NCBI GenBank assembly: GCA_009786975.1 | Contig: WRGX01000219.1 | Location: 1 to 59,021 of the forward strand | Reading direction: 5' to 3' | DNA length: 59,021 nt | From: Defluviitaleaceae bacterium | Lineage (GTDB): Bacteria; Bacillota; Clostridia; Lachnospirales; WQUN01 | Part shown: positions 215 through 58,900 of the stretch, piece after piece | Layout of the letters: each line of letters begins with the position of its first letter | Position numbering within the stretch: the first letter of the stretch is position 1 | Translations under genes and position numbers: made by a program | Notes under the pieces: model-generated | Seen by the model: the letters and a program-made list of their open reading frames with translations, nothing else | The model's database searches: none | What the model was told of the DNA's origin: nothing

Positions 215-255
215 AAAAAACGCTCGGTGTAAAATTTAACCGAGCGTTTTTTTTT
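215..255. terminator. bidirectional intrinsic terminator after the surface-protein operon
   Basis: Stem AACGCTCGGT (219-228) pairs with ACCGAGCGTT (239-248). An A-run lies upstream and a T-run (247-255) downstream, so it reads as hairpin plus U-tract on both strands. Confidence 0.6.
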
Positions 256-261
256 GTACGT

Positions 262-336
262 TAAACTGCTTCCGGCTTCGAGGGAATGCGTCGCCGCTAA
301 CGTGCGCCCCCGGTGCCCAATGCGCGCTTGGCGCGC
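262..336 (-). repeat. R90 repeat copy, reverse orientation, overlapping the 3' end of CDS 297..1151
   Basis: CCGGCTTCGAG core at 272-282 and head palindrome GCGCGCTTGGCGCGC at 322-336. It aligns along its length with the array units at 37610-37875. Confidence 0.85.
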
Positions 337-1151: not shown

Positions 1152-1171
1152 ATACATAATTCCTCCTTCGG

Positions 1172-13303: not shown

Positions 13304-13393
13304 AAAAAGCGCGCCAAGCGCGCATTGGACACCGGGGACATGTGTCGGAGTCGGCGCATTCCCTCGAAGCCGGGAGCAATTTCCTAGCCCACG
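13304..13393 (+). repeat. R90 repeat copy, forward orientation, in a divergent intergenic region
   Basis: AAAAAGCGCGCCAAGCGCGC head (palindrome 13309-13323), then ACCGGGGACATGTGTCGG and CTCGAAGCCGGGAGCAATTTCC. Confidence 0.9.
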
Positions 13394-13437
13394 AAAAAAA
13401 TGAGTCGGCGAGTGTCACTCGCCGACTCATTTTTTTC
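13394..13437. repeat. P31 palindrome copy (terminator-like hairpin) with no gene to terminate
   Basis: A7-ATGAGTCGGCGAGTG-T-CACTCGCCGACTCAT-T7, with the perfect 15-bp arms at 13400-13430. It lies between the divergently transcribed giant gene and the SLH gene. Confidence 0.8.
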
Positions 13438-13548
13438 GTTGCGATTTTTTGGCAAAATCCGGCGATATTCGTCCGGTAAATTCTCTTTGCTTTTTTTCAA
13501 ACTGTAATGTATAATCACTCTGTAAAATTCAAAAGGGGGCTACTTATA

Positions 13549-15558
13549 ATGAAGAAAATTTTAACCATAGGTCTTATTTTATTGATTCTCGCGGCGTTTC
13601 CCGCTATCGCCACTGCGGCACAAACGCCCGCGCCCACACCTCCGCCCGTGCCGAATGTCGCGGACATCGAGCTGACCGTCGAGCTTCAGGGGCTGGAAAA
13701 TTTATTTGTCGGTGCCGAAGTCAGCGGGCGCATTTTATTTGAGCTGGAAGGCGCGCAGTTTGCGCAGGAAATTGCTCCGGAAGATTTTTGGGTAGGCAAT
13801 TTGCCGCCGGGTCTCGTTGCCGAAGATGCACGGCGCATCGGCAACCAACTCGTTGAAATTCGCATAACAGGCCGTCCCGACCAAGAAATCGCGACAGCGC
13901 GGGTTTTAACCACCCCCGCACGCCTGCACGTGCGCAATATTCGCCACGGACAACTCCTGTCGATTGCCACGATTCCCATCACGCGCGAAGGCTCGTTCAG
14001 CGTGGGTTCCGCCGCGGCAAGCTCGGGCATTTACCCTACGGCGATTTTCTTTGACCTGAACCCGTACGGAGCGTATCACCGCGACGCCTTCGTGCGCATA
14101 AATCTGCCCTACGGTTTCTCCCTTATAAACATCCGTTACGGCAGAATGAATTTGACCGAAGAAACGCAATTTACAAGGCATCCGAACAATCAGATAAGAA
14201 TCCACAGTTCGTTTTTGAACCGCATGGCGATTGGCGAATGGGAGCTTGAATTTATGATGAATCGCGGCGCAAATCCGACGGTTCGTATCGTAGTCATTGA
14301 TACAAGAACGGATGAAGAGCCGGAGGAATACGAGGAAGTCGGGCCGCCGCCCGCGCCGCCTCAAGCCCCGCCGCATCCCGACGACAGCTTTATGTACCTG
14401 ACAGGCGGAATCGCCGTGGATTTAAATTCCCTTCATTGGAACCTGAACCGCGCGCGTGTAACGCCCGAATTCCATGACGGCGTCGCGACCGCGACGGTTC
14501 GAGCCAATGTGCTGAATTACCTCGCATGGGAACGCCCCGGCGAAACCTTTCAGATTCTTACGCCGCACGCGCGAATTCGCATCCCGACAGATATTTTCGC
14601 TTCAATGTACGGCGCGAGTGCCGCAGTTTCAGCCAATGACCTGACCTACAGCCAAGTAGATTTGCGCATAACAATCGCCGACCGTTCCGGCGACGAGCGT
14701 TTCAACGAAATGCTTGAAGCGACGTATCCATACGGCGAAATTTTATCGTCCCTGCTCGAGTTTCGCGTGGAGCTTGTTTGTGCCGTAACCGACGAAATAA
14801 TCCTCACGGCGCAAGAATTCGCGACGCCGCTTGAATTGTCGTTTATCGTAATGGACAACGCCGGTCACCTGCGTCCCGCGGGCGTTTTATTCCGGACGCA
14901 ATGGATTGAATTTGTACCGTATCGTTCGCCCTCGCCCAACGAATTTGTCCTCAGAACAATTTTCCCGGGTACAATGGGCGTAATCCACAATCGCATCCAT
15001 TTCGAAGATATTTACTCGACCCACTGGGGATTTGTGCAGTCCTACACGGCGGCATACAGCGGTCTTCTCGTGCCGACGGCGCAACTCAGCCCCGATACAC
15101 CGATTACACGCGGCGAATTCGCCCAGCTTGTTGCCTCAATTTTACAGCTTCCCCGCGCAAGCGCGCATATCTCCGGCTTCACCGATGTCCCGCCGCCGAA
15201 CGTATTTTTCGACGGAGTAAGCCGCCTGTTTAACGCAGGTCTGCTCGGCCCCTATGTACCCGGCTCACGTTTCTATCCCAACTCGATAATAACGCGCGAA
15301 GAAATGGCATCGATAGTCGGCATGGCAATTCGCCTGAACGACCCCGTCCTGCCCGAAAATTCGCGCCCCCTCCTAACCTTCACCGACGGCGACGAATTCA
15401 CCCAAGCCCACATGCACAACGTCCAAGCAACCGTAGATTTCGGCGCAATGGTAGGCTATCCCGACAATTCCTTCCGCCCCCAAAGGCAAGCCACACGCAT
15501 CTACGCCCTCGAAGCCACGATACGTCTCGCCCGCATTTTGGGCATCCTCGACGAGTAG
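13549..15558 (+). CDS. secreted cell-wall protein with three C-terminal SLH domains
   Basis: SD AAAGGGGG lies about 10 nt upstream of ATG 13549, and the signal peptide is MKKILTIGLILLILAAFPAIATA. SLH-like segments: FEDIYSTHWGFVQSYTAAYSGLL, FTDVPPPNVFFDGVSRLFNAGLL, FTDGDEFTQAHMHNVQATVDFGAMVGYPDNSFRP. The longer ORF from 13507 lacks an SD. Confidence 0.8.
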   Translation: MKKILTIGLILLILAAFPAIATAAQTPAPTPPPVPNVADIELTVELQGLENLFVGAEVSGRILFELEGAQFAQEIAPEDFWVGNLPPGLVAEDARRIGNQLVEIRITGRPDQEIATARVLTTPARLHVRNIRHGQLLSIATIPITREGSFSVGSAAASSGIYPTAIFFDLNPYGAYHRDAFVRINLPYGFSLINIRYGRMNLTEETQFTRHPNNQIRIHSSFLNRMAIGEWELEFMMNRGANPTVRIVVIDTRTDEEPEEYEEVGPPPAPPQAPPHPDDSFMYLTGGIAVDLNSLHWNLNRARVTPEFHDGVATATVRANVLNYLAWERPGETFQILTPHARIRIPTDIFASMYGASAAVSANDLTYSQVDLRITIADRSGDERFNEMLEATYPYGEILSSLLEFRVELVCAVTDEIILTAQEFATPLELSFIVMDNAGHLRPAGVLFRTQWIEFVPYRSPSPNEFVLRTIFPGTMGVIHNRIHFEDIYSTHWGFVQSYTAAYSGLLVPTAQLSPDTPITRGEFAQLVASILQLPRASAHISGFTDVPPPNVFFDGVSRLFNAGLLGPYVPGSRFYPNSIITREEMASIVGMAIRLNDPVLPENSRPLLTFTDGDEFTQAHMHNVQATVDFGAMVGYPDNSFRPQRQATRIYALEATIRLARILGILDE

Positions 15559-27665: not shown

Positions 27666-28244
27666 ATGAATTTTACGCATTACGACTTGGGAGGCCTTGA
27701 AAAAGGAAAAACTGTTGAGGTCGTGCTTAATGGGAATGCCGCGAATGTGTTTCTTATGGACCACGAAAATATGGCGAAATATGTAAAAGCGAAACCGTTT
27801 AAGGCCATTGGCGGTCGAATGACGTTTTCGCCCATTCGAATGCAAACGATTTACGAAGCGCATTGGCACCTCGTAATCGATTTGCCCGACGGATACGGCT
27901 CGGTAAAATCAAGCTACCGCTTTTTGAAAAGCGCGGCGGCGAACATCAGCCTGCGTCCCGATATTTTCCGCCCCACAGAGGCGCAAATAAACGCGGTTAA
28001 ATCTGCGGCGGAATTAGAAGCGAAAAAACCCAAATCAGCCCTTGATAAAGAAAAAAAAGAGCCAGAAAAAAGGCTCGAAAGAATTCCGCCGGCACAAGTC
28101 ACCTGCCCAAGTTGCGAGGCATTAACAATGCTCGGTAAATTTTGTATGGAGTGCGGTCTGCTTTTGCAAAAAGCCTGCCAGTCCTGCGAAAGCATAAACC
28201 CGATGCAAGGAAAATACTGCATAGAATGCGGCACCAAAATGTAG
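27666..28244 (+). CDS. DUF1883-like domain protein with C-terminal double zinc ribbon
   Basis: MNFTHYDLGGLEKGKTVEVVLNGNAANVFLMDHENMAKYVKAKPFKAIGG...HWHLVIDL matches my recollection of DUF1883. C-terminus: CPSCEALTMLGKFCMECG..CQSCESINPMQGKYCIECG. Confidence 0.6.
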   Translation: MNFTHYDLGGLEKGKTVEVVLNGNAANVFLMDHENMAKYVKAKPFKAIGGRMTFSPIRMQTIYEAHWHLVIDLPDGYGSVKSSYRFLKSAAANISLRPDIFRPTEAQINAVKSAAELEAKKPKSALDKEKKEPEKRLERIPPAQVTCPSCEALTMLGKFCMECGLLLQKACQSCESINPMQGKYCIECGTKM

Positions 28245-28245
28245 A

Positions 28246-28368
28246 GCCCGCCAAGCGGGCGTGGGAACCGGGGGCATGTGTTGTGTGCGGCGCGTCCGCC
28301 AAGCGGCGTGGGGACCGGGGGCATATGTTATGTGCGGCACGTTCTCTCGAAGCCGGAAACTGATTCGC
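28246..28368 (+). repeat. R90 variant, about 1.5 copies, filling the whole convergent intergenic space
   Basis: Head variant GCCCGCCAAGCGGGC at 28246-28260, starting 2 nt after the stop. A second partial head CCGCCAAGCGG follows, then GACCGGGGGCATATGT..CTCTCGAAGCCGGAAACTG. It ends 2 nt before the Hpt gene stop. Confidence 0.75.
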
Positions 28369-28370
28369 TT

Positions 28371-28877
28371 TTAGGGCGTTCCGAACAGCTCCCGCAGAAC
28401 TTTCAACGTCACAAGAGCGTCTTTGAATGCAAAAAGTTCGATTTGTCGAATAAGTACCTTTGTTTCCGGGATTTTTTCGATTTCGGCAATAAGCTGGGTG
28501 CAGGACGCGTCGCTTGCGATAAGCAGGGCTTCCAGCCTGTCAAAAAGCGCGGTCTGCTCGTCTGACGCGGGCGGAAGTCCGTCGTCGTTTAAAATGCCCG
28601 ATGCCGCAATTTTCGCCAAAACATGGTCAAGCTCGCATTCTAATGCCTGCATATCAGGCTCTTTCGGGAGCTTTTTCTTGCGAAGCGTCTGCTCCACTTT
28701 AAGCGAGGCTTCGCGCAAGGTTTCCTCGTCGATTAATGCGGCGAGGCTTTTTAATGTGTGGGCAATTCGGTGCGCCGTCGCAAGGTGATTCGAGGCAATT
28801 TCTGCCCGCAAATCGTGAATTGTGTACCTTTGAGCCTTTGCAAAATCTCGGCGATAACGTACTGTTTCTCGTGTCAT
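28371..28877 (-). CDS. Hpt (histidine phosphotransfer) domain protein
   Basis: HLATAHRIAHTLKSLAALI matches the HxxKG/S phosphotransfer motif. SD AAGGGGG. Confidence 0.7.
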   Translation of the reverse strand: MTRETVRYRRDFAKAQRYTIHDLRAEIASNHLATAHRIAHTLKSLAALIDEETLREASLKVEQTLRKKKLPKEPDMQALECELDHVLAKIAASGILNDDGLPPASDEQTALFDRLEALLIASDASCTQLIAEIEKIPETKVLIRQIELFAFKDALVTLKVLRELFGTP

Positions 28878-29482: not shown

Positions 29483-29497
29483 CTTAAGTATGTACAC

Positions 29498-29537
29498 AAA
29501 AAAGAGTCGGCGAGTGACACTCGCCGACTCTTTTTTT
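29498..29537. terminator. P31 palindrome acting as the atp operon terminator
   Basis: A6-GAGTCGGCGAGTG-A-CACTCGCCGACTC-T7. On the minus strand it follows atpC and one R90 copy. Confidence 0.8.
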
Positions 29538-29626
29538 ATGGACCGGTAAATGGCTCCCGGATTCGAGAGAACGTGCCGACGCCGACACATGTCCCCGGTG
29601 CCCAATGCGCGCTTGGCGCGCTTTTT
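29538..29626 (-). repeat. R90 repeat copy in the atp operon 3' UTR
   Basis: CTCCCGGATTCGAGAGAACG...ACACATGTCCCCGGTGCCCAAT, with GCGCGCTTGGCGCGC at 29607-29621. It lies 32 nt downstream of the atpC stop. Confidence 0.9.
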
Positions 29627-31642: not shown

Positions 31643-31737
31643 TTTTTTATGGGCCAGGAAACTGCTCCCGGCTTCGAGGGAATGTGCCGATTTCGACACA
31701 TGTCCCCGGTGTCCAATGCGCGCTTGGCGCGCTTTTT
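31643..31737 (-). repeat. R90 repeat copy inside the atp operon (atpG-atpD spacer)
   Basis: GGAAACTGCTCCCGGCTTCGAGGGAATG...ACACATGTCCCCGGTGTCCAAT, with GCGCGCTTGGCGCGC at 31718-31732. No P31 or other strong terminator lies next to it. Confidence 0.9.
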
Positions 31738-37503: not shown

Positions 37504-37569
37504 TTATCTATAATATCTCAACAAAAAAAAATGTCAATCATTTTCGATTGCCATTTTTTATTATTTTGC

Positions 37570-37609
37570 AAAAAAGAGTCGGCGAGTGACACTCGCCGAC
37601 TCTTTTTTT
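37570..37609. terminator. P31 palindrome terminator separating the ABC gene from the atp operon
   Basis: A6-GAGTCGGCGAGTG-A-CACTCGCCGACTC-T7. Confidence 0.8.
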
Positions 37610-37875
37610 ACGGACGAGGAAACTGCCCCCGGCTTCGAGAGAACGCGTCGCCGCCGACACATGTCCCCGGTGCCCAATGCGCGCTTGGCGCGCTTTTTTA
37701 TGGGCCGGGAAACTGCCCCCGCCTTCGAGAGAACGCGTCGCCGCCTACACATGCCCCCGGTGCCCAATGCGCGCTTGGCGCGCTTTTTTATGGGCCGGGA
37801 AATTGCTTCCGGCTTCGAGGGAACGCGTCGCCGCCGACACATGCCCCCGGTGCCCATTGCGCGCTTGGCGCGCTT
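37610..37875 (-). repeat. R90 tandem array, 3 units, exact 90-bp period
   Basis: Head palindromes GCGCGCTTGGCGCGC start at 37679, 37769 and 37859. The array begins 8 nt after the ABC gene stop (37884) on the minus strand and ends at the P31 hairpin. Confidence 0.95.
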
Positions 37876-37883
37876 TTCATACG

Positions 37884-39656
37884 TTACGGGCGGGTTTCCA
37901 CCAACGAAAAATACTCCCCGCGAAGCTCCAAAAGTTCCTCGTGTGTCCCGCGCTCCGCGACTTTTCCGTGGTCAATCACCATAATCAAATCCGCGTGTTT
38001 AATCGTAGAAAGCCGATGCGCGATTATAAAGGAAGTGCGGCCTTGCAAAAGGCGGTCGAGGCCTTTTTGCAGGGCTTGCTCGGTGCGTGTGTCGATGTTT
38101 GCGGTGGCTTCGTCTAAGATTAAAATTCGAGGGTCGGCCAAAAGCGCGCGCGCGAAGGAAATCAGTTGCCGCTGACCGACGGAAAGCCGCGTACCGCGCT
38201 CGTTCACCTCGGTTTTGTAGCCCTTTTCGGTCTCCATTATGAATTCATGCGCGCAAACCGCTTTTGCCGCCGCGATTACCTCGTCGTCACTGGCGTCGAG
38301 GCGGCTGTAGCGGATGTTTTCCATGATTGTTCCCGAAAAAAGAAAGCTGTCCTGAAGCATTATGCCCATTTGTCGGCGCAACGAATACAGCGTCGCGTCG
38401 CCGATATCGAAGCCATCGATAAAAATTTGCCCTTTTTCAAGCTCGTAAAATCGCGAAAGCAGGTTCACAACCGTCGTTTTCCCCGCGCCCGTCGGCCCTA
38501 CAAGTGCAATCGTGCTTCCTGCTTCACAGGAAAAATTCACATTGTCCAAGACGGGCTGGTTTTTTTCGTATGAAAAACTTACATTTTTGAACTCGACACG
38601 CCCCTCGATTTCGGGCATATCGCACGCGCCGGGTTTATCCGCGACCAGAACCGGCTCGTCGAGGGTTTCAAAAATTAATTCGAGATAGCTCATGTTTGTG
38701 ACAATCGAATTGTAAAAAATCGCGATATTGTTAATCGGCGTCCAAAATCGATGAATGTACATGACAAACGCGACAAGAACGCCCACTGTAAGCGCGTTAT
38801 CAGCAATCATCGAAACCGCAACAACATATAAAAACGAAACCGCAAGCGTGCTGATATTTTCGATAGTGGGCCGCAACAAAAAGACCATCGCGATACCCTT
38901 CATCCAAGTTTTTTGTACGCTGTACGAAACATCGGCGAAAATCGCTTCATTTTCCGCTTCGCGCGAAAACGCCTGCGTAATTTTCACGCCCGCGATGCTT
39001 TCGTGAATATACGCGTTAAGATTCGACTGTTTCGCGCTGATTAACTGCCACGCCCGCCGATTTTTCGTGCGAATAATAAAAATCGCGCCAAAAAGAAAGG
39101 GCATCCCCGCCATTGCAACAAGCGTGAGCTGCGTGTCAATCGTCAGCATAATTACAACGATAATGCCAAGCGAAAGCATGTCTGTAATCACGTTTAAAAG
39201 CCCGTTCGACAGCATTTCGCTTAAGGAATTTATGTAATTAACAAGCCGCACAAGAATTTTCCCGTGGGGCCGCGAATCAAAAAAACTGAACGGCAAAAGC
39301 TGGATATGTTTAAACAAATCCAGCCGCAAGTCTCGAATTACGCCTTGCCCGACCTTAGCCATCGCCGCGATACGATATCGCATAAAAAATATGTTCAAAA
39401 AAATAGTAGCCAGCATGATTGCCGAAAGAATCAGCACCTGCGCCACATTTCCGGTCGGAATCGCCTCGTCCATAACAATCATCGTAAGGTACGGTGCCAA
39501 AAGCCCAAGCCCGCTCGAGGTAATCGTAAACGCAAAAGTAAGCCCGAAAACGCGCCGATAGGGACGAATATATTTCCCAAGCCGAAACAAATGCCCAAAC
39601 TTAAACACATTTTTTTGGTCGAGAACCTCGTCCTCGCGAAAAGTATTTCGCGCCAC
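37884..39656 (-). CDS. ABC exporter, fused permease/ATPase (type I exporter, probably homodimeric)
   Basis: Walker A GPTGAGKTT, signature LSVGQRQLISFARAL, Walker B ILILDEATANID. The start is reassigned to GTG 39656 (SD AAGGA 8 nt upstream), because the longer ORF to 39782 runs antisense through tRNA-Leu and has no in-frame ATG before the TM region. Confidence 0.85.
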   Translation of the reverse strand: MARNTFREDEVLDQKNVFKFGHLFRLGKYIRPYRRVFGLTFAFTITSSGLGLLAPYLTMIVMDEAIPTGNVAQVLILSAIMLATIFLNIFFMRYRIAAMAKVGQGVIRDLRLDLFKHIQLLPFSFFDSRPHGKILVRLVNYINSLSEMLSNGLLNVITDMLSLGIIVVIMLTIDTQLTLVAMAGMPFLFGAIFIIRTKNRRAWQLISAKQSNLNAYIHESIAGVKITQAFSREAENEAIFADVSYSVQKTWMKGIAMVFLLRPTIENISTLAVSFLYVVAVSMIADNALTVGVLVAFVMYIHRFWTPINNIAIFYNSIVTNMSYLELIFETLDEPVLVADKPGACDMPEIEGRVEFKNVSFSYEKNQPVLDNVNFSCEAGSTIALVGPTGAGKTTVVNLLSRFYELEKGQIFIDGFDIGDATLYSLRRQMGIMLQDSFLFSGTIMENIRYSRLDASDDEVIAAAKAVCAHEFIMETEKGYKTEVNERGTRLSVGQRQLISFARALLADPRILILDEATANIDTRTEQALQKGLDRLLQGRTSFIIAHRLSTIKHADLIMVIDHGKVAERGTHEELLELRGEYFSLVETRP

Positions 39657-39705
39657 AGTTTCACATCCTTGAATTTTTCTGTTATAATCCAATAATAGCA
39701 CAAAT

Positions 39706-39787
39706 GCGGATGTGGTGGAATTGGCAGACACGCGAGATTTAGGTTCTCGTGCCGTAAGGTGTGCAGGTTCAAGTCCTGTCATCCGCA
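39706..39787 (+). tRNA. tRNA-Leu (anticodon UAG)
   Basis: Cloverleaf read by eye. Acceptor GCGGATG/CATCCGC plus discriminator A. Anticodon stem CGAGA/TCTCG with loop TTTAGGT. Long variable arm. T-arm GCAGG-TTCAAGT-CCTGT. 82 nt, with no encoded CCA. An extended -10 TGTTATAAT lies at 39680-39688. Confidence 0.9.
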
Positions 39788-40695: not shown

Positions 40696-42591
40696 TTATG
40701 CGCTCTCCTCAAACTGACTGCGATACAATTTTTCATAAACGCCGCCTGCGGCAAGAAGCCCGTCATGCGTACCTTGTTCGGCAATATCGCCGTCCCGCAT
40801 TACTAGGATTAAATCCGCGCTTCGAATCGTCGAAAGGCGATGCGCGATAATAAACGATGTGCGGCCTTGCATCAAATTGTCCATTGCGCGCTGGATTTGA
40901 ATCTCTGTGCGCGTGTCGACATTGCTTGTTGCTTCGTCGAGAATTAGAATGTCGGGGTTTGCCAAAATTGTTCGCGCGATGGTTAATAGCTGTTTTTGTC
41001 CGGCGGAAATATTGTCGGCTTCTTCATTGATTTGCATCCCGTATCCGTCGGGAAGCACGCGAATAAAGTGATGCGCCTGCGCCGCTCGTGCGGCGTTTTT
41101 TACGTCCTCGTCGCTTGCGTCGAGGCGTCCGTATCGGATATTTTCCGCAATTGTGCCGCTGAAAAGCCATGTATCTTGCAAAACCATGCCAAAATGCCGC
41201 CGCAATTCGTCGCGTTCGTATTCCGTAATATTTTTTCCGTCAACAAAAATCCCGCCCGACGCAACATCGTAAAACCGCATAAGCAGCTTGACAATCGTGG
41301 TTTTCCCCGCGCCGGTATGCCCGACAATCGCAATTTTCTGCCCCGGCTTAACCTCCGCCGTAAAATTTTTTATAACAGGCGTGTCCGGCTCATACCCAAA
41401 GCAGACGTTCTTAAACTCCACACGCCCAACGAAAGTTTTTTTGAGAAGGGTTTTTGGTTCCGGGGGCACGTGTAAATCCTTGCGCGTGCTCTCGAAGCCG
41501 GATGCTGTTTGCGTTGCTGCTTGTGTTGCTGATTGCGTTGAAAAAATTTCTCCCCCTAGGTCTTCTTCTTCCTCGCCCAAAAAATCAAAGACTCGCTCCG
41601 CCGCCGCCGCGGTTTGTTGGAAAACTGACGCGACTCCGGCGAGCTGGGCGATTGGGTGCCCGAGCTGGCGCGTGTACTGGATGAAGGCTTGAATTCCGCC
41701 GATTGTCATTGCGCCGTTAAGGGTCAGCGCGCCGCCGATTACGACGATTGCTACATACCCGATGTTACTAATAAATCCGACGATTGGCATCATCATGCCG
41801 GAGAAAAAATTTGCGCGCCAAGAGGCGTTATATAAGGCTTTGTTGTGCTCGTCAAAAGCCTCGACGGATTTTTTTTCGCCGTTGAACGCCTTGACGATGG
41901 CGTGCGCCGTGAACATTTCCTCGATGTGTCCGTTGAGTTTTCCCAGGTCTGCTTGTTGCGCCTTGAAATATTTTTGCGATTTTTGCACGACGAAGGCCGT
42001 GCAAGCCGCCGAAATCGGCAGGGTAATCAGGGCGACAAGCGTCAAAATCGGGCTGATTGTAAGCATCATTATAATCGTTCCGATGATGTGAACCGCGCTC
42101 ATTAACGCCTGGGAAATTCCCGAGCCAAGCGTGTTTGCCAAGGTATCGACGTCGTTTGATATGCGCGAAAGCACGTCTCCGTGCGGGTTTTTATCAAAAT
42201 ATTTCAGCGGCAAGCGATGAATTTTATCGCTTAATTCAACACGCAAGCGATACATAACACGCATGGCTACGCCCGCCATAATGTAGCCCTGTGCGTAGTT
42301 GAAAATAATATTCAGCGAGTGAAGCACGAGCATAATCAACAAAATTTGGCCGATTCGCGAAAAATCTATGCCGCCGACGCCCTCGCCCATGCGTATCAGC
42401 CCGCTGAAAATTTCGTCGGTCGCTTCGCCCAAAATTCGCGGCGCAAGCACCGCCATAATCGTCGAAACCACCATGAAAATCGTCGTAAGCGTGATGACAA
42501 ACATTTCGCCGCCGAGGTACGCCAAAAGTCGCCGAATCGCCCCGCGAAAATTTTTCGGCTTGTCTTCTTTGTGGGGCCCGTGTCGCCTCAT
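40696..42591 (-). CDS. ABC exporter, fused permease/ATPase (heterodimer partner 2)
   Basis: Walker A GHTGAGKTT, signature ISAGQKQLLTIARTI, Walker B ILILDEATSNVD. ATG 42591 overlaps the upstream gene stop as ATGA. The TMD-NBD linker is about 30 aa longer than in the paralog at 37884. Confidence 0.9.
   Translation of the reverse strand: MRRHGPHKEDKPKNFRGAIRRLLAYLGGEMFVITLTTIFMVVSTIMAVLAPRILGEATDEIFSGLIRMGEGVGGIDFSRIGQILLIMLVLHSLNIIFNYAQGYIMAGVAMRVMYRLRVELSDKIHRLPLKYFDKNPHGDVLSRISNDVDTLANTLGSGISQALMSAVHIIGTIIMMLTISPILTLVALITLPISAACTAFVVQKSQKYFKAQQADLGKLNGHIEEMFTAHAIVKAFNGEKKSVEAFDEHNKALYNASWRANFFSGMMMPIVGFISNIGYVAIVVIGGALTLNGAMTIGGIQAFIQYTRQLGHPIAQLAGVASVFQQTAAAAERVFDFLGEEEEDLGGEIFSTQSATQAATQTASGFESTRKDLHVPPEPKTLLKKTFVGRVEFKNVCFGYEPDTPVIKNFTAEVKPGQKIAIVGHTGAGKTTIVKLLMRFYDVASGGIFVDGKNITEYERDELRRHFGMVLQDTWLFSGTIAENIRYGRLDASDEDVKNAARAAQAHHFIRVLPDGYGMQINEEADNISAGQKQLLTIARTILANPDILILDEATSNVDTRTEIQIQRAMDNLMQGRTSFIIAHRLSTIRSADLILVMRDGDIAEQGTHDGLLAAGGVYEKLYRSQFEESA
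41430..41512 (+). repeat. degenerate R90 copy embedded in frame in the ABC linker
   Basis: 41457-41512 reads GGTTCCGGGGGCACGTGTAAATCCTTGCGCGTGCTCTCGAAGCCGGATGCTGTTTGCG. This aligns with the R90 core CACCGGGGGCATGTGTCGGCGGCGACGCATTCCCTCGAAGCCGGACGCAGTTTCCG. The head part (41430-41456) has decayed. Confidence 0.55.
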
Positions 42592-44468
42592 GAGACGGCA
42601 CCCTGACTTGATGCAATTTCGCGGTATTCCGCGCAATTTTTCAAAAGTTCTGCGTGAGTCCCGCGCCCGACGATTTTTCCTTCATCTAATACAAGGATTT
42701 GCTCGGCGTTTATAATCGTGCCGACGCGTTGCGCAATCACGATGATTGCGGCATTTGCGGCATGTTCGCGCAGGGCTTTTCGAAGTGCGGCATCGGTTTG
42801 GAAATCCAGCGCGGAAAACGCGTCGTCGAAGATTAAAATTTCCGGCTCTTTTGCAAGCGCGCGCGCAATCGAAAGCCGCTGGCGTTGTCCGCCGGAAATA
42901 TTTGTGCCGCCCTGCGAAATTTCCGCCGCGAATCCGCCCTCTTTTTCGGCAATAAAATCCGCCGCTTGGGCAACGCGCGCAATTTTTTCAAGGAAGGAAG
43001 GATTGTCTCCGGCTTTGTCTCCGGCTTCGAGAGAACGCGTGGCTTGCGACACATCTTCGCGGTGCCCACCGTGCGCTTGGCGCACTCCGTACTTTATGTT
43101 TGACTCAATCGTCCCCGAAAGAAGCTGCCCTTTTTGCGGCACGTAGCCGATTTTTTCGCGAAGTTCCGCCTGCCGCATCCGCCGAATATCCACCCCGTCA
43201 ACAAGAATCCGCCCGCCGCTTACATCGTAAAACCGAAGCAAAAGCTGCGCAATAGTGGACTTTCCGGCACCGGTTGCCCCAATAATCGCCGTAGTTTCGC
43301 CAGCTTTCGCATCAAACGAAATGCCCTCAACAGCCGCCGCCTCTGCGTTTGGATAGCTGAACGAAACCTGTTCAAAAACAATAGTCGGGGTCAAGGGGGC
43401 TTTGCTCCCTTGCGGGGGATTGGGGGCTGGTCGTCCGCCTAAAGGCGGACTGCTCGCCCATGCGACCGGGGCTGCGCCCCCAAGGTCTTCATCATCGACA
43501 ATACTAAACTCCGTATCAAGCACCTCGGAAATTCTCTTAGCCGAAACCTGCGCTCGCGGCACCATTACAAGCACCATCGAGAACATCATGAACGCGAAAA
43601 GGACTTGCATTGAGTATTGGAAAAAGGCCATCATGTCGCCGATTGGGAGGTCTTCGGAAAGGGTGCCGACGGAACGCGCGCCGAAAAAAATTATTGCGAC
43701 TTGCGTAAAACCCATGATGAACGTGATTGCGGGACCGATGAAAGCCATGGTTCTTCCGATGAAAAGACCGAGGTCGCGCAGGTCGGTGTTGGACTTGTCA
43801 AAACGGGATTTTTCGTGCGCCTGTGCGGCAAAAGCGCGGATGACGGGCAGGCCGTGCAGGATTTCGCGGGCGACGCGGTTGAGCCCGTCGGTCTTTTCTT
43901 GCACAAGAGCGAATTTGGGCATAACAATCGACACAAGAAGTATCACGATGCCGAATAAAATTATCACGGCAAGCCCCAAAATCCAGCTAAGCCCGGGGGC
44001 GCGGGTGAGTGCCATAAAAATTCCGCCGACAGCCAAAATAGGCGCGTAAAGAAGCATGCGCGCCGAAATGTTTGCGACATTTTGGACCTGTGTAACGTCG
44101 TTTGTGCAGCGTGTGATAAGCGACGCCGACGAAAATTTATCGAATTCCGTCTGCGAAAAGTTTTCGACTTTTATGAACAAATCGCGCCGCAAATCACGCG
44201 CCGCGCCCGCCGCAACTTTGGGCGAAATGTATGAAACAATAATCGAAAATGTACCCGCCAAAAGCGCGAAAAAAAGCATTGCGGCACCCGTTTGCAAGAT
44301 AAATTCCATGCGCGACTCGCCCGTTTGGTAGGCATAAACAATGCCGTCGTCAACGATTGCGGACATCAAGGTCGGCAAATAAAGCTCCGCAAGCGACTGC
44401 ACAAAAAGCAGCACAAGTATAAGAATTATTCCGCCCCAAAAGGGCTTTAAATATTTCGCCAGTGACAT
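42588..44468 (-). CDS. ABC exporter, fused permease/ATPase (heterodimer partner 1) carrying in-frame repeat insertions
   Basis: Walker A GATGAGKST, signature ISGGQRQRLSIARAL, Walker B ILIFDDAFSALD. It has an extra ~25 aa between NIKYG and the AADFI helix, and an extra ~24 aa in the TMD-NBD linker, relative to the two paralogs in this window. Confidence 0.9.
   Translation of the reverse strand: MSLAKYLKPFWGGIILILVLLFVQSLAELYLPTLMSAIVDDGIVYAYQTGESRMEFILQTGAAMLFFALLAGTFSIIVSYISPKVAAGAARDLRRDLFIKVENFSQTEFDKFSSASLITRCTNDVTQVQNVANISARMLLYAPILAVGGIFMALTRAPGLSWILGLAVIILFGIVILLVSIVMPKFALVQEKTDGLNRVAREILHGLPVIRAFAAQAHEKSRFDKSNTDLRDLGLFIGRTMAFIGPAITFIMGFTQVAIIFFGARSVGTLSEDLPIGDMMAFFQYSMQVLFAFMMFSMVLVMVPRAQVSAKRISEVLDTEFSIVDDEDLGGAAPVAWASSPPLGGRPAPNPPQGSKAPLTPTIVFEQVSFSYPNAEAAAVEGISFDAKAGETTAIIGATGAGKSTIAQLLLRFYDVSGGRILVDGVDIRRMRQAELREKIGYVPQKGQLLSGTIESNIKYGVRQAHGGHREDVSQATRSLEAGDKAGDNPSFLEKIARVAQAADFIAEKEGGFAAEISQGGTNISGGQRQRLSIARALAKEPEILIFDDAFSALDFQTDAALRKALREHAANAAIIVIAQRVGTIINAEQILVLDEGKIVGRGTHAELLKNCAEYREIASSQGAVS
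43003..43086 (-). repeat. R90 copy inserted in frame in the nucleotide-binding domain of the ABC gene
   Basis: TCTCCGGCTTCGAGAGAACGCGTGGCTTGCGACACATCTTCGCGGTGCCCACC, plus the head GTGCGCTTGGCGCAC (43071-43085). A 12-bp internal duplication GTCTCCGGCTTT/GTCTCCGGCTTC is present. The segment translates as VRQAHGGHREDVSQATRSLEAGDKAG. Confidence 0.85.
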
Positions 44469-49048: not shown

Positions 49049-50137
49049 ATGGAACAGATTAAGCTGGGCGTTGTCGGCCTCGGGCTTGCGTGGGAGCGGC
49101 TTCACGCGCCCGCGCTTGCAAAACTGCGGGACAGATTTGAAATTGCTGCGGTGTGTGACAGGGATTTGGCAAAGGCACAAAACGTTGTGCAATTCATGGG
49201 GCATTCGCCCGAAAACGCTTTTGATGATTTGCAAAAAATGCTTGAGCGGGACGACATCGAGGCGATTTTGTCGCTTGTTCCCATCAGCGAAAACTTTGAA
49301 ACCGCCGCAACCGTCATGCGAAGCGGCAAGCATCTTTTGGCGGAAAAACCCTTCGCGGCCTCGCCCGACGCGGCACGGAGGCTTATTCAAATGTGCGATT
49401 TGTCAAGCTCGACGGTTATGGTTGCGGAAAATGTGCGTTACGAGGAACAAAACGTGCTGATAAAAGAGCTCCTCACAAGCGGCGAAATCGGCGAGCCGAT
49501 TTTTTTCATCGATACGCACATCATCGACTACGCGAGGGAGTCGGAGCGCGGCGGTTTCGGTCAAACAAATTGGCGGCAACATCCGCGATATGAAGGCGGC
49601 GTGATTCTTGATTCCGGCGTGCATCATATGGCGAGGTTGCGGTATCTTTTCGGCGATATCGACAATGTGTCCGCGCACGGGCATCCGCCCATGCACGATT
49701 TCGCGCCGTATTCCTGCATAAACGCGCTGTTAAAATTTGAAAATATCACGGGACATTACACATTTTTCACGGCAGGAAGGGAAACACAAGCACCGCTCGT
49801 TGGGTTGCGAATTTACGGCACAAAAGGCGAAATTTTCCTCGAGGATTCAAACTGTGGGTTCGTAAACATTTCATATACCGACGAACGCCCCTCCAACGCC
49901 GTTAACTACATGCCCGGCCTCGGCTACCAGCGCGAGCTTGAAAACTTCCACGCCGCAATTCGCATGGGCGCGAAAATCGAATCCGGCCCCGAAAAGGCCG
50001 TCGGTGACATCGAAGCTGTTTTCGCTCTGTTGGAATCCGCCCGTGCAAACGAATCCTCCCCCTCGGATGCGTCCGAAAGACTGACGTCGGCCTACATTTT
50101 TCCAAAAGTCACAATGTATCCGGGCGCAAGAGTTTAG
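49049..50137 (+). CDS. Gfo/Idh/MocA family oxidoreductase
   Basis: Rossmann N-terminus IKLGVVGLGLAWERLHAPAL and the EKP motif LLAEKPFA. SD AAAGGAG. Confidence 0.85.
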   Translation: MEQIKLGVVGLGLAWERLHAPALAKLRDRFEIAAVCDRDLAKAQNVVQFMGHSPENAFDDLQKMLERDDIEAILSLVPISENFETAATVMRSGKHLLAEKPFAASPDAARRLIQMCDLSSSTVMVAENVRYEEQNVLIKELLTSGEIGEPIFFIDTHIIDYARESERGGFGQTNWRQHPRYEGGVILDSGVHHMARLRYLFGDIDNVSAHGHPPMHDFAPYSCINALLKFENITGHYTFFTAGRETQAPLVGLRIYGTKGEIFLEDSNCGFVNISYTDERPSNAVNYMPGLGYQRELENFHAAIRMGAKIESGPEKAVGDIEAVFALLESARANESSPSDASERLTSAYIFPKVTMYPGARV

Positions 50138-50491
50138 GCGCGCCAAGCGCGCGGTGGGCACCGGGGACATGTGTCGGCGGCGACGCATTCCCTCGAAGCC
50201 GGGAACAGTTTCTTGGTCCACAAAAAAGCGCGCCAAGCGCGCGGTGGGCACCGGGGACACGTGTCGGCGGCGACGCATTCCCTCGAAGCCGGACGCAGTT
50301 TCCGAGCCCATAAAAAAGCGCGCCAAGCGCGCGGTGGGCACCGGGGGCATGTGTCGGCGGCGACGCATTCCCTCGAAGCCGGACGCAGTTTCCGAGCCCA
50401 TAAAAAAGCGCGCCAAGCGCGCGGTGGGCACCGGGGACACGTGTTGGCGGCGACGCATTCCCTCGAAGCCGGATGCAGTTTACCGGTCCAC
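50138..50491 (+). repeat. R90 tandem array, 4 units, exact 90-bp period
   Basis: Head palindromes GCGCGCCAAGCGCGC start at 50138, 50228, 50318 and 50408. Units 2 and 3 differ at 2 of 90 positions. The array starts on the nucleotide after the TAG stop of the upstream gene. Confidence 0.97.
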
Positions 50492-50533
50492 AAAAAAAAC
50501 AACCCGGATGTCAGGTTTCCGGGTTGTTTTTTT
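50492..50533. terminator. bidirectional intrinsic terminator between the oxidoreductase gene/R90 array and glgD
   Basis: A8-AACAACCCGGA (50498-50508) pairs with TCCGGGTTGTT (50518-50528), then T7. Confidence 0.8.
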
Positions 50534-54657: not shown

Positions 54658-55869
54658 ATGCATGTAAGCGGCATAATCGCCGAATTCAACCCGCTTCATC
54701 GCGGGCATATCGCCCATATAAATGAAACGCGACAAAAATTCGGCGGAAAAATCGTTGTTGCGATGAGCGGGAATTTCGTCCAGCGCGGCGAACCCGCGAT
54801 TTTTGACAAACGAAAACGCACCAAAACGGCTCTTTTGGCGGGCGCGGACATTGTGCTTGAAATTCCTGTGCCGTATGTGATTGCGGGCGCGGATTATTTT
54901 GCGCGAGGAAGTGTCGGGCTTTTGGCGGCGACGGGCGTGGTTTCGACGCTTAGTTTTGGCAGTGAGTGCGGGGATATTGAGGCGATTCGCCAAACGGCGG
55001 ACGTGCTTGCGAACGCGCGCCAAATGCGCGTGCCGATGGCGACACATGCTCCCGAAAACGATTTCGGTTTGTTTGAAGAAACATTGCGCGCGCATCTCGA
55101 CGCGGGCATGTCCTTCGCGGCGGCGCGCGGCGCGGCACTTTCGGCGTGCTTGCCCGATGCGCCGGAAGGCTTGTTCACCAAGCCGAATAACTGCCTCGCA
55201 ATCGAATATTGCAAAGCACTTCTCCTTCTCGGAAGCCCGATGGAAGTTTTCACAACACACCGTGCGTCCGGCGGCCCGTCCGCGACAAAAATTCGCGCGC
55301 GCCAAGCACGCAATGAGCACCGAAGACGCATATCGCACATCGACGACTTCTCAAAAATCTTCCGCCATCTCCTGCACACGCGTGATTTCGACCTCGGCGA
55401 AGGTTTACAAAACCGTTTCCGCAAATTTTCCGCCGAATTCACCCAAATTTCCGAAATAATCGACGCGGTAAAAACCAAACGCTACACGCGCACGCGCCTG
55501 TCCCGCGCGGTTTTGGGCGTAATTTTGGGCATCTCTTCGGCAGATATGGATTTTTTTGATTCGGCGAAAAACTGCACCCGTCTTCGGGGGAACCCGTCGC
55601 ATCCAGCACATGACTTCGGTGCCCAATACATACGCGTTTTGGGCTTTCGCAAAGAAAGCGCGGATTTGCTTGGCGCGATAACAAAAAAGGCCGCGCTGCC
55701 CGTCATAACGCACGGCGCGGCCATGGATGAAATTTTACGCGGCGACAAAGGCGAAGCCGCCGCCGCCATGCTTGCGAAGGACTTCGAAGCAACCGATATT
55801 TACCGAATCGCAACAAACACACCCTGCGCCTTCCGAGGCGAACGCGGCGAAGGGATTATTGTAGTGTAG
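54658..55869 (+). CDS. tmcAL: tRNA(Met) cytidine acetate ligase (TmcAL/YlbM, UPF0348 nucleotidyltransferase)
   Basis: GIIAEFNPLHRGHIAHINETR (HxGH motif), AMSGNFVQRGEPAIFDKRKR and ADIVLEIP. SD GAGGTG upstream of ATG 54658. Confidence 0.8.
   Translation: MHVSGIIAEFNPLHRGHIAHINETRQKFGGKIVVAMSGNFVQRGEPAIFDKRKRTKTALLAGADIVLEIPVPYVIAGADYFARGSVGLLAATGVVSTLSFGSECGDIEAIRQTADVLANARQMRVPMATHAPENDFGLFEETLRAHLDAGMSFAAARGAALSACLPDAPEGLFTKPNNCLAIEYCKALLLLGSPMEVFTTHRASGGPSATKIRARQARNEHRRRISHIDDFSKIFRHLLHTRDFDLGEGLQNRFRKFSAEFTQISEIIDAVKTKRYTRTRLSRAVLGVILGISSADMDFFDSAKNCTRLRGNPSHPAHDFGAQYIRVLGFRKESADLLGAITKKAALPVITHGAAMDEILRGDKGEAAAAMLAKDFEATDIYRIATNTPCAFRGERGEGIIVV
55566..55650 (-). repeat. degenerate R90 copy embedded in frame in tmcAL
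   Basis: GAAAAACTGCACCCGTCTTCGGGGGAACCCGTCGCATCCAGCACATGACTTCGGTGCCCAAT aligns with GGAAACTGCCCCCGGCTTCGAGAGAACGCGTCGCCGCCGACACATGTCCCCGGTGCCCAAT at roughly 70% identity by eye. The head palindrome is lost. Confidence 0.5.
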
Positions 55870-58770: not shown

Positions 58771-58857
58771 AAAAAGCGCGCCAAGCGTGCATTGGGTACC
58801 GGGGACATGTGTCGGCGGCGACGCATTCCCTCGAAGCCGGGAGCAGTTACCCGGCGT
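58771..58857 (+). repeat. R90 repeat copy in the 3' UTR of the hydrogenase-like MCP gene
   Basis: AAAAAGCGCGCCAAGCGTGC (one G-U compatible change), then TACCGGGGACATGTGTCGGCGGCGACGCATTCCCTCGAAGCCGGGAGCAGTTACC. It starts 9 nt after the stop. Confidence 0.9.
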
Positions 58858-58859
58858 AC

Positions 58860-58900
58860 AAAAAAACAATCGTCCGGTATCACCGGACGATTGTTTTTTT
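58860..58900. terminator. bidirectional intrinsic terminator
   Basis: A7-AACAATCGTCCGGT (58865-58878), loop ATC, ACCGGACGATTGTT (58882-58895), then T-run to 58900. Confidence 0.8.

What the first reader, a model, noticed from the sequence alone, without database searches (positions are those of the whole stretch)
41430..41512. R90-derived segment translated in reverse-complement frame r1 within the TMD-NBD linker of ABC exporter 40696..42591
The linker between RVFDFL and GRVEFKNV is about 50 aa, against 19 aa in the paralog at 37884. It contains TASGFESTRKDLHVPPEP, which matches the r1 reading of R90 (TASGFEGMRRRRHMPPVP in ORF 49871..50458) at 10 of 18 positions. The underlying DNA aligns with the R90 core. 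The extra length is about 30 aa, which equals one 90-bp unit.
Basis: seen in the sequence. Interest (0 to 1): 0.65.

Follow-up and report, generated by a model that had tools for sequence, protein, structure and literature searches.

The report
Repeat-derived insert in ABC exporter linker
A piece of a 90-bp repeat that litters this termite-gut bacterium's genome sits in frame inside an intact ABC exporter gene, adding about 31 probably floppy amino acids between its membrane and ATPase domains; this is a new example, in a Firmicute, of the "selfish DNA inside protein-coding genes" known from Rickettsia.

Summary
An nhmmer model built from seven R90 units hits 41456..41511 (E=5.6e-5, model positions 20-75). 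Only 1 of 5000 shuffles of the insert scores as well against the R90 consensus.

The gene (40696..42591, minus strand) is an intact TM288-type half-transporter. Its segment from RVFDFL to GRVEFKNV is 64 aa, against a mode of 33 aa in 119 homologues. None of them carries this sequence. Three orthologue contigs (60 kb) contain no R90.

An independent assembly at 82x depth reproduces the insert. AlphaFold gives pLDDT below 50 for residues 346-385 and otherwise only for the N-terminal residues 1-8. dN/dS against the closest orthologue is 0.125.

The case is not isolated:
- The partner gene carries a stronger R90 piece in its ATPase domain (43016..43084, E=7e-13).
- The partner's own linker carries a second repeat, R2.
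- R2 occupies this finding's linker site in the closest orthologue.
- TmcAL in this window also carries R90 pieces in frame.
- HflX, ThiI and a radical-SAM gene in another Defluviitaleaceae genome do too.

Verdict: a real, RPE-like, probably neutral in-frame insertion. It is a new member of a known kind, and the R90 family itself is undescribed.

The parts
40696..42591 (-). ABC exporter half-transporter 'ABC-B' (631 aa). It is TM288-like: consensus Walker B ILILDEATS and degenerate signature ISAGQ. It hosts the insert.
   Evidence: Intact ORF whose start overlaps the partner's stop. PDB phmmer: 3qf4_B TM_0288 E=9e-152 and 8wcw_B E=2.5e-154. dN/dS 0.125 against the orthologue in L001.
41451..41543 (-). 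Extra linker DNA absent from orthologues (about 93 nt, 31 codons, roughly aa 351-381). Boundaries are approximate, +/-10 nt.
   Evidence: Protein alignment of 120 homologues. DNA alignment with L001 shows shared host flanks GAGAAAYTTTTTT and CTYYTCAAAAAAACT. PDB alignments break at query residue 344 and resume at 388. AlphaFold pLDDT is below 50 for residues 346-385.
41456..41511 (+). R90-core-derived segment, model positions 20-75. It encodes QTASGFESTRKDLHVPPEP on the minus strand.
   Evidence: nhmmer 19.0 bits, E=5.6e-5. Shuffle test 1/5000. On the + strand the core hairpin survives as a 15-bp stem with 4 G.U pairs; the whole insert folds at -40.5 kcal/mol (z=-5.6). The mRNA strand folds at -15 kcal/mol (z=0.07).
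41503..41540 (.). 12-nt tandem duplication (3.2 copies) encoding STQSATQAATQT. It accounts for about 24 nt of the extra length.
   Evidence: Tandem Repeats Finder.
37604..37877 (-). R90 tandem array A (3 units). It starts 10 nt after the stop codon of ABC paralogue 37884..39782 and is followed by an intrinsic-terminator hairpin.
50138..50497 (+). R90 tandem array B (4 units). It starts immediately after the stop codon of oxidoreductase 49049..50137 and is followed by a terminator hairpin.
42588..44468 (-). Partner half-transporter 'ABC-A' (626 aa). It is TM287-like, with degenerate Walker B FDDAFS.
43016..43084 (-). Second, better-preserved R90-derived in-frame insert, in the ATPase domain of ABC-A (..VRQAHGGHREDVSQATRSLEAGDKAG..). 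A 26-aa gap lies opposite it in the closest orthologue.
   Evidence: nhmmer 44.3 bits, E=7.3e-13. Alignment with the L001 orthologue. Adjacent 12-nt duplication at 43003..43027.
43387..43487 (-). Copy of a second repeat family, 'R2' (about 101 nt), in frame in the TMD-NBD linker of ABC-A (LGGAAPVAWASSPPLGGRPAPNPPQGSKAPLTP).
   Evidence: A 27-aa gap lies opposite it in the L001 orthologue. It is 96% identical over 102 nt to an intergenic copy in L011. A 50-nt core is also present in L001 at 11071..11120, identical to the L011 copy and 98% (49/50) to the window's.

Best explanation
A copy, or the core module, of the R90 repeat family became inserted in antisense orientation into the DNA encoding the linker between transmembrane helix 6 and the nucleotide-binding domain of a heterodimeric ABC exporter subunit. 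R90 is a small structured repeat that normally lies between stop codons and terminators in this genome.

The copy survived for three reasons. Its length kept the reading frame, this reading of R90 has no stop codon, and the linker is a surface-exposed site of variable length.

Since then the copy has decayed to about 70% identity with the consensus. Its GC-clamp hairpin is no longer recognisable. The Arg-rich RRRRH has been replaced by RKDLH. The copy has grown by a 12-nt slippage duplication.

Today it is most likely translated as a roughly 31-residue disordered extension of the linker. It probably has little or no effect on transport, so it is a tolerated passenger rather than an adaptation.

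Shown: the DNA homology to R90, absence of the segment from orthologues, an intact ORF under purifying selection, predicted disorder of the insert, and presence of the insert in an independent assembly. Inferred: translation, neutrality, the insertion mechanism (transposition or recombination at an A/T run) and the timing (after the split from the L001 lineage).
For: - nhmmer gives E=5.6e-5 for the segment, and 1 of 5000 shuffles reach the observed score.
- None of 119 homologues has this sequence. The modal linker segment is 33 aa against 64 aa here.
- Solved TM288-type structures align up to query residue 344 and again from 388.
- AlphaFold pLDDT is below 50 for residues 346-385 and, apart from that, only for the N-terminal residues 1-8.
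- dN/dS is 0.125 against the closest orthologue, and all ATPase motifs are intact.
- An independent Logan contig at 82x depth matches 41158..42000 with no differences and shows no joint that skips the insert.
- Orthologue contigs L001, L013 and L014 have no R90.
- The same thing has happened elsewhere. In this window: the ABC-A ATPase domain (E=7e-13) and TmcAL (E=1e-12), in different frames and orientations. In another Defluviitaleaceae genome: HflX, ThiI and a radical-SAM/DUF512 gene.
- The ThiI copies read GFEGTRGYLHVPPE and GFEGTRDHLHVPPE, in the same frame as GFESTRKDLHVPPE here.
- Other homologues carry unrelated extra residues at the same linker site, so the site is permissive.
Against: - The score is modest (19 bits). 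Only the core of the unit is recognisable, so a full 90-bp unit may never have been inserted.
- The exact boundaries, and any target-site duplication, cannot be defined without a closely related empty site.
- The closest orthologue already carries a different insert (R2) at the same place. An older shared insertion that was later replaced therefore cannot be excluded.
- No transcript or peptide evidence exists.
- The core hairpin is still well formed on the + strand (z=-5.6). That could mean the copy is under structural constraint rather than decaying freely.
Confidence: 0.85

Rival explanations
1. The insert came from a short 'core-only' variant of the family, a module of about 45 nt running CCGG...CCGG. 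That variant either spreads on its own or was copied in by recombination or gene conversion. A full 90-bp unit was never present, so the approximate 30-aa = 90-bp equality is a coincidence.
For: Only model positions 20-75 match. The ThiI gene of another genome carries three tandem core-only units with periods of 60-68 nt, no GC-clamp hairpin and a very similar peptide. About 24 nt of the extra length is a 12-nt duplication.
Against: The T run at the 5' side of the insert (gene sense) coincides with the A/T-run end of R90. The match can be extended weakly, 10 of 14 bases by eye, towards model position 80. Every full copy in this window is the 90-bp form.
Confidence: 0.25
2. The insert has been co-opted. 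Either the longer linker changes coupling between the membrane and ATPase domains, or the hairpin retained on the + strand acts at the nucleic-acid level, for example as an antisense RNA or a DNA structure.
For: The + strand fold is much stronger than shuffles (-40.5 kcal/mol, z=-5.6) with G.U pairs. The mRNA strand does not fold comparably. Coding copies in two genomes share the LHVPPE changes, with Leu encoded by different codons.
Against: The region is predicted to be disordered. No orthologue needs it. Part of the strong fold comes from the low-complexity 12-nt repeats. The hairpin may simply be inherited from the source copy. Three sequences are too few to show convergence.
Confidence: 0.08
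3. The resemblance is chance similarity within an ordinary, fast-evolving, variable-length linker.
For: The linker varies in length across the family (30-64 aa), and the match is short.
Against: E=5.6e-5 window-wide. Only 1 of 5000 shuffles reach the score. Much stronger R90 pieces sit in frame in the neighbouring gene and in TmcAL. The same frame and peptide occur in ThiI of another genome.
Confidence: 0.03
4. The insert is an assembly artefact: a repeat-induced chimera placed R90-like sequence into the gene.
For: R90 is multi-copy, and repeats are a classic cause of metagenome misassembly.
Against: An independent assembly of run X1 (2258-nt contig, depth 82) covers 41158..42000 with no differences, and no joint skips the insert. 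The copy is about 30% diverged from every other R90 copy, so reads from other copies could not have produced it.
Confidence: 0.02

Closest known systems
Rickettsia palindromic elements (RPEs): Ogata et al. 2000 Science 290:347; Ogata et al. 2002 Genome Res 12:808, as summarised in PMC10969869
   Same: A family of small hairpin-forming repeats (about 100-150 bp) found both between genes and, in frame, inside unrelated housekeeping genes. Copies inside genes keep the ORF open, sit at positions compatible with the protein fold, and decay with time.
   Different: There is no sequence relationship. The host is a free-living gut Firmicute (Defluviitaleaceae), not an obligate intracellular alphaproteobacterium. 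R90 is 90 bp, forms head-to-tail tandem arrays, and its intergenic copies lie between a stop codon and an intrinsic terminator. Copies inside genes use several frames and both orientations, rather than one conserved peptide per family.
Intragenic enterobacterial small mobile sequences (ERIC, RU-1/2/3): Delihas 2007, PMC2759123; Delihas 2011, PMC3184786
   Same: Intergenic MITE-like repeats that carry open frames and are occasionally found fused in frame to host genes, adding new peptide segments.
   Different: Those elements have terminal inverted repeats and TA duplications typical of MITEs. R90 shows no terminal inverted repeats. Its only candidate duplication is an A run.
REP/BIME elements of enterobacteria and SPRITE, the pneumococcal rho-independent-terminator-like element (named in PMC10969869; the details used here are from my own knowledge)
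   Same: Structured GC-rich repeats that occupy 3' untranslated regions between stop codon and terminator, in a preferred orientation and sometimes in clusters. R90 contains a GC hairpin which, on one strand, is followed by a T run.
   Different: REPs are 20-40 nt and cluster in alternating orientation. R90 is longer, tandem and head-to-tail, and it also occurs inside genes. Association with a RAYT-type transposase was not tested.
TM287/288-type heterodimeric ABC exporters (PDB 3qf4, 4q4a and others)
   Same: The host gene pair has this architecture: one chain with a degenerate ATP site (FDDAFS) and one with a consensus site (LDEATS), encoded by overlapping genes. The match to TM_0288 has E=9e-152.
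   Different: The solved proteins have a linker of about 10 residues where this protein has about 43. Neither R90 nor R2 sequences occur in them.

Membership tests
RPE-like 'protein-coding repeat' phenomenon (as a kind, not the Rickettsia families themselves) | The inserted segment is homologous to a multi-copy repeat that also occurs intergenically in the same genome. | tested here: met
   nhmmer E=5.6e-5 for the insert. There are 12 full-length intergenic units in the window, at 70-92 bits.
RPE-like 'protein-coding repeat' phenomenon (as a kind, not the Rickettsia families themselves) | The insertion preserves the host reading frame and the host gene stays intact. | tested here: met
   A 631-aa ORF with all ATPase motifs. 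dN/dS 0.125. The extra length is 31 codons.
RPE-like 'protein-coding repeat' phenomenon (as a kind, not the Rickettsia families themselves) | Orthologues in other genomes lack the segment. | tested here: met
   None of 119 homologues has it. DNA comparisons with L001, L013 and L014 agree.
RPE-like 'protein-coding repeat' phenomenon (as a kind, not the Rickettsia families themselves) | The insertion is recurrent, in several unrelated genes. | tested here: met
   ABC-A ATPase domain and TmcAL in the window. HflX, ThiI and a radical-SAM/DUF512 gene in Emb289P1bin119.
RPE-like 'protein-coding repeat' phenomenon (as a kind, not the Rickettsia families themselves) | The insert lies at a structurally permissive, surface position. 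| tested here: met
   It lies between TM6 and NBD strand 1. pLDDT is below 50 for residues 346-385. Solved homologues have a gap there.
Rickettsia RPE families proper | Sequence homology to an RPE family. | not tested
   No RPE sequences were available to compare. The host phylum and the element sequence make membership implausible. I do not file it there.
MITE | Terminal inverted repeats. | tested here: not met
   The unit ends are GCGCGCCAAGCGCGC... and ...CCCATAAAAAA, which are not inverted copies of each other. The hairpins are internal.
MITE | Target-site duplication. | tested here: inconclusive
   Most intergenic copies are preceded by AAAA(A) and end in AAAAAA. That could be a duplication, or just a preference for A runs.
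MITE | A cognate transposase or parent IS element. | not tested
   No transposase was seen among the roughly 18 window ORFs scanned with Pfam. The rest of the genome was not available.
REP/REPIN | A palindrome of 20-40 nt, inverted pairs, and an associated RAYT. | tested here: not met
   The unit is 90 nt, and the arrays are head-to-tail with an exact 90-nt period. RAYT was not testable.
Curated RNA family (Rfam 15) | A match at the gathering score. | tested here: not met
   Only a tRNA matched in the whole window. The best sub-threshold match on array B was 22.8 bits against a gathering score of 97.
TM287/288-type heterodimeric ABC exporter (host gene) | ABC_membrane plus ABC_tran half-transporter pair with one degenerate and one consensus ATP site. 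| tested here: met
   Pfam and PDB matches. FDDAFS in ABC-A against LDEATS in ABC-B, and signature ISAGQ in ABC-B.

The most novel reading that the evidence does not exclude
Termite-gut Defluviitaleaceae carry at least two families of small structured repeats, R90 and R2, that behave like Rickettsia RPEs. They repeatedly colonise housekeeping proteins in frame: ABC exporters, TmcAL, HflX, ThiI and a radical-SAM enzyme. They appear to prefer A/T runs next to hairpins, so that the same linker site was hit independently by different elements in sister genomes.

The process may be ongoing. R2 copies are 96% identical or better across genomes whose orthologous genes differ by dS of about 0.9. If this holds, it would be, as far as I know, the first extensive case of protein-coding selfish repeats in Firmicutes, and a natural system for watching new protein segments arise.
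Probability: 0.5. Interest if true: 0.7.

Novelty: new member of a known kind. Interest (0 to 1): 0.55.

Why it matters
It shows that in-frame colonisation of essential-type genes by small selfish repeats is not a peculiarity of Rickettsia. It also happens in a free-living gut Firmicute lineage. One heterodimeric ABC exporter has been hit three times by two element families.

Practical consequences:
- Annotation: unexplained 'linker expansions' and odd low-complexity segments in MAG proteins can be repeat-derived.
- Protein evolution: disordered linkers act as landing pads for new sequence.
- Repeat biology: R90 is an undescribed family, 3'-UTR-resident, terminator-associated and strand-asymmetric in its structure.

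The individual insert itself is most likely functionally neutral.

Tried and rejected
- Rfam gave nothing. The gathering scan of the whole window found only a tRNA. The permissive scan of array B gave only noise.
- No RNA-seq runs hold the gene, so transcription across the insert could not be shown.
- A search of 5.8 billion proteins with the R90 peptide in the frame used here (60 aa) returned a single 94-aa hit. The segment is therefore not a known protein motif, and the search gave no census.
- The metagenome scan for the R2 core returned only two contigs, one of which I already had.
The family's phylogenetic spread is therefore unknown.
- I tested whether R90 is unusually 'coding-compatible'. 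It is open in 5 of 6 frames, but 17% of shuffles are too, so this is not significant.
- I tried to define exact insertion boundaries and a target duplication from L001 and L013. Host flanks are recognisable, but the site in the closest orthologue is occupied by R2 and the next one is too diverged. Boundaries stay at about +/-10 nt.
- Covariation in R90 is weak. Four of the 15 predicted pairs have changes on both sides, mostly in the GC clamp, and the core shows G.U wobble changes. The covariation energy term is small (-0.72), so an RNA-level function is suggested but not shown.
- I considered CRISPR for the arrays and rejected it: the period equals the unit and there are no spacers.
Full report
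**1. What is at the coordinates**

The window (59 kb, 51% G+C) comes from a termite-gut bacterium of the family Defluviitaleaceae. The nearest named proteins are 'MAG: Defluviitaleaceae bacterium'. The only public run holding the sequence completely is a termite gut metagenome. MAGs of this family from higher termites are described in PMC7024585.

The gene 40696..42591 (minus strand, 631 aa) is an intact ABC half-transporter. Its start overlaps the stop of a partner half-transporter at 42588..44468. It matches chain B of the TM287/288 heterodimer at E=9e-152. It has a consensus Walker B (ILILDEATS) and a degenerate signature (ISAGQ). The partner has the degenerate Walker B (FDDAFS). This is the classical asymmetric heterodimer arrangement.

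**2. The repeat**

R90 is real.
- Tandem Repeats Finder reports arrays of exactly 90-nt period at 37604..37877 (3.0 copies) and 50138..50497 (4.0 copies), both at 92% matches.
- A profile of the seven array units finds five more full-length single copies: 248..336, 13309..13398, 29532..29621, 31643..31732 and 58776..58865, at 70-82 bits.
- It also finds about ten partial copies.

Written in the orientation GCGCGCCAAGCGCGC...CCCATAAAAAA, the unit has a 6-bp GC-clamp hairpin followed by a longer stem. The strongly conserved part is CCGGGGRCAYGTGT-N13-TTCYCTCGAAGCCGG. This strand folds at -47.7 kcal/mol (z=-3.2). The complement folds at -38.2 kcal/mol (z=-0.8).

I aligned 22 copies from this window and from another genome. 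The clamp shows changes on both sides that keep pairing. The core shows G.U wobble changes that are allowed only on this strand. The covariation energy term is small, however.

Intergenic copies share a context:
- Most are preceded by a short A run.
- All but one are followed directly by a classical intrinsic-terminator hairpin with a T run.
- Three of them have the same hairpin, GAGTCGGCGAGTGTCACTCGCCGACTC.
- Six of the seven intergenic loci lie 0-124 nt after the stop codon of a gene on the same strand. The exception is 13309, which lies in a divergent promoter region.

No Rfam family matches. There are no terminal inverted repeats.

**3. The observation checked**

The R90 profile hits 41456..41511 on the + strand, antisense to the gene. 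The score is 19.0 bits, E=5.6e-5 for the whole window, over model positions 20-75. In an independent local-alignment test, 1 of 5000 shuffles of the 121-nt linker DNA reached the observed score.

Read on the gene's strand, the segment gives QTASGFESTRKDLHVPPEP. The same reading of R90 gives ETA(P/S)GFEG(T/M)RRRRHMPPVP.

The GC clamp is missing. The 12-nt tandem duplication at 41503..41540 encodes STQSATQAATQT and supplies about 24 nt of the extra length. So the equation of the extra length with one clean 90-bp unit is only approximate.

**4. Is it an insertion?**

I aligned the 119 best homologues out of 8000 with E<=1e-50.
- The stretch from RVFxFL to GxVxFxxV is 33 aa in the great majority, with a range of 30-56. 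Here it is 64.
- None of the homologues has the R90-like sequence.
- Solved structures of the family align up to residue 344 (EEEED) and again from 388 (VGRVEF). They have about 10 residues between these points where this protein has 43.
- At the DNA level the closest orthologue (P0002, 83% identity, locus L001) shares the host flanks GAGAAAYTTTTTT and CTYYTCAAAAAAACT, but has different DNA between them.
- Contigs carrying orthologues (L001 21.9 kb, L013 16.8 kb, L014 21.8 kb) contain no R90 at E<=1. The 59-kb window contains more than twenty pieces.

**5. Is it an artefact or a dead gene?**

Neither.
- An independent assembly of run X1 yields a 2258-nt contig at depth 82 that matches 41158..42000 without a single difference. 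No joint skips the insert.
- The copy is about 30% diverged from all other R90 copies, so it could not have been assembled from their reads.
- The ORF is intact.
- dN/dS against the L001 orthologue is 0.125, with dS of about 0.9. The partner gene gives 0.132.

**6. Where it sits in the protein**

I ran AlphaFold2 with a 57-sequence alignment. It gives a confident model (mean pLDDT 83.9). Only two regions fall below pLDDT 50: the N-terminal residues 1-8 and residues 346-385. The insert falls between the end of the TM6 helix (residue 338) and the first NBD strand (residue 391).

Several other homologues carry unrelated extra residues at the same point: P0005, P0011, P0016, P0040 and P0120. The site therefore tolerates length changes.

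**7. It is one of many**

- The partner gene carries a much better preserved R90 piece (43016..43084, 44 bits, E=7e-13) in its ATPase domain, in the sense orientation and a different frame (VRQAHGGHREDVSQATRSLEAGDKAG). The closest orthologue has a 26-aa gap there. It too has an adjacent 12-nt duplication, at 43003..43027.
- The TmcAL-like gene 54658..55869 (PF05636, E=8e-90) contains R90 pieces at 55556..55629 (E=1e-12), 55297..55351 and, weakly, 55026..55074. The Thermotoga TmcAL structure has gaps opposite two of them.
- The dockerin protein 297..1157 ends inside an R90 copy.
- In another Defluviitaleaceae MAG (Emb289P1bin119), R90-like pieces lie in frame in HflX, a radical-SAM/DUF512 protein and ThiI.
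- The ThiI copies read GFEGTRGYLHVPPE and GFEGTRDHLHVPPE. This is the same frame as the present insert and strikingly similar to it. They consist of the core only.

**8. A second element at the same site**

The partner's own TMD-NBD linker holds a 101-nt element that I call R2 (43387..43487). It is absent from the L001 orthologue, which has a 27-aa gap there. It is 96% identical to an intergenic copy that follows a permease gene in contig L011.

In L001, a 50-nt R2 core lies in the linker of the orthologue of the present gene, at the site where the window has R90. That core is identical to the L011 copy and 98% (49/50) to the window's.

So the two closest genomes carry different elements at the same linker position. 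Both lie next to the same T run. Either the site is a hot spot, or an older insert was replaced. The high identity of R2 copies contrasts with a host dS of about 0.9. This suggests either recent mobility or strong constraint on R2.

**9. How it most likely works**

The best-supported reading is a passenger insertion. A member of the R90 family landed in the linker-coding DNA, probably at the T/A run. It kept the frame and contained no stop codon in that reading. It was tolerated because the linker is exposed and flexible, and it has been drifting since.

On the + strand the core hairpin is still a 15-bp stem with four G.U pairs. The whole insert folds at -40.5 kcal/mol (z=-5.6). On the mRNA strand the fold is unremarkable, at -15 kcal/mol (z=0.07). 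Translation should therefore not be impeded.

I cannot tell whether the retained hairpin reflects constraint or inheritance. I give the co-option reading a low probability. A more serious variant is that a core-only module was inserted, rather than a full 90-bp unit (probability 0.25).

**10. Comparison with known systems**

Functionally this is the phenomenon described for Rickettsia palindromic elements. It was also described, on a smaller scale, for intragenic ERIC/RU elements (PMC10969869; PMC2759123).

R90 is not a member of those families, and it fails the MITE criterion of terminal inverted repeats. In its intergenic life it resembles REP/BIME and SPRITE-type 3'-UTR elements. It differs from them in length and in its head-to-tail arrays.

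I rate the finding as a new member of a known kind.

Noticed in passing
window 43016..43084 (within gene 42588..44468, minus strand): A second, much stronger R90-derived in-frame insert (E=7e-13) in the ATPase domain of the partner ABC subunit. It encodes HGGHREDVSQATRSLEAGDKAGDNPSF and is absent from the closest orthologue. A 12-nt tandem duplication lies beside it at 43003..43027.
   Followed up: yes
window 43387..43487; L011 1026..1127; L001 11071..11120: A second repeat family, 'R2' (about 101 nt; core GGTCGCATGGGCGAGCAGTCCGCCTTTAGGCGGACGACC). It sits in frame in the partner's TMD-NBD linker, intergenically in L011, and in the linker of this finding's orthologue in L001. Copies are 96% identical or better, although the host genes differ by dS of about 0.9. 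It occurs only once in the window.
   Followed up: partly
window 54658..55869 (+), hits at 55556..55629, 55297..55351, 55026..55074: The TmcAL-like gene (HIGH_NTase1, PF05636) carries two clear and one weak R90-derived pieces in frame, in different frames and orientations. The T. maritima TmcAL structure has gaps opposite two of them.
   Followed up: partly
window 248..336 and ORF 297..1157 (-): The dockerin-domain protein runs into an R90 copy, which supplies its last 13 or so residues and its stop codon (C-terminal extension ...RRAKRALGTGGAR).
   Followed up: no
window 13399..13435, 29495..29531, 37568..37603: The same terminator hairpin, GAGTCGGCGAGTGTCACTCGCCGACTC with flanking A and T runs, follows three separate R90 loci. 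The repeated unit is therefore sometimes R90 plus a terminator module.
   Followed up: no
window 39706..39787 (+): A tRNA gene (Rfam 54 bits) overlaps the 5' end of the long ORF 37884..39782 (-). The true start of the ABC paralogue must therefore lie further downstream; Pfam matches fit a start near 39617.
   Followed up: partly
L003 2319..3929, L003 5973..7733, L010 6704..7999 (Defluviitaleaceae MAG Emb289P1bin119): R90-like pieces lie in frame inside HflX (splitting the GTPase domain), a radical-SAM/DUF512/PDZ protein (two pieces) and ThiI (three tandem core units between the ferredoxin-like and THUMP domains).
   Followed up: partly
window 28249..28366: A degenerate tandem pair of truncated R90 copies (TRF period 47) lies in the convergent intergenic region between 27666..28244 and 28371..28877.
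   Followed up: no
window 1172..13102 (-): A single ORF of 3976 aa next to a dockerin-domain protein (297..1157), with an SLH-domain protein (13507..15558) on its other side. It is presumably a giant cell-surface protein. I did not examine it.
   Followed up: no
L001 10036..10065 (linker of P0002 gene): A near-perfect 30-nt palindrome, GAGAAACTTTTTTTGAAAAAAAAGTTTCTC (14-bp arms around a 2-nt centre), lies in the coding sequence immediately 5' of the R2 core. A shorter version (CTTTTTGAAAAAAG) is present at the uninserted site in L013. It may be the feature that attracts the elements.
   Followed up: partly
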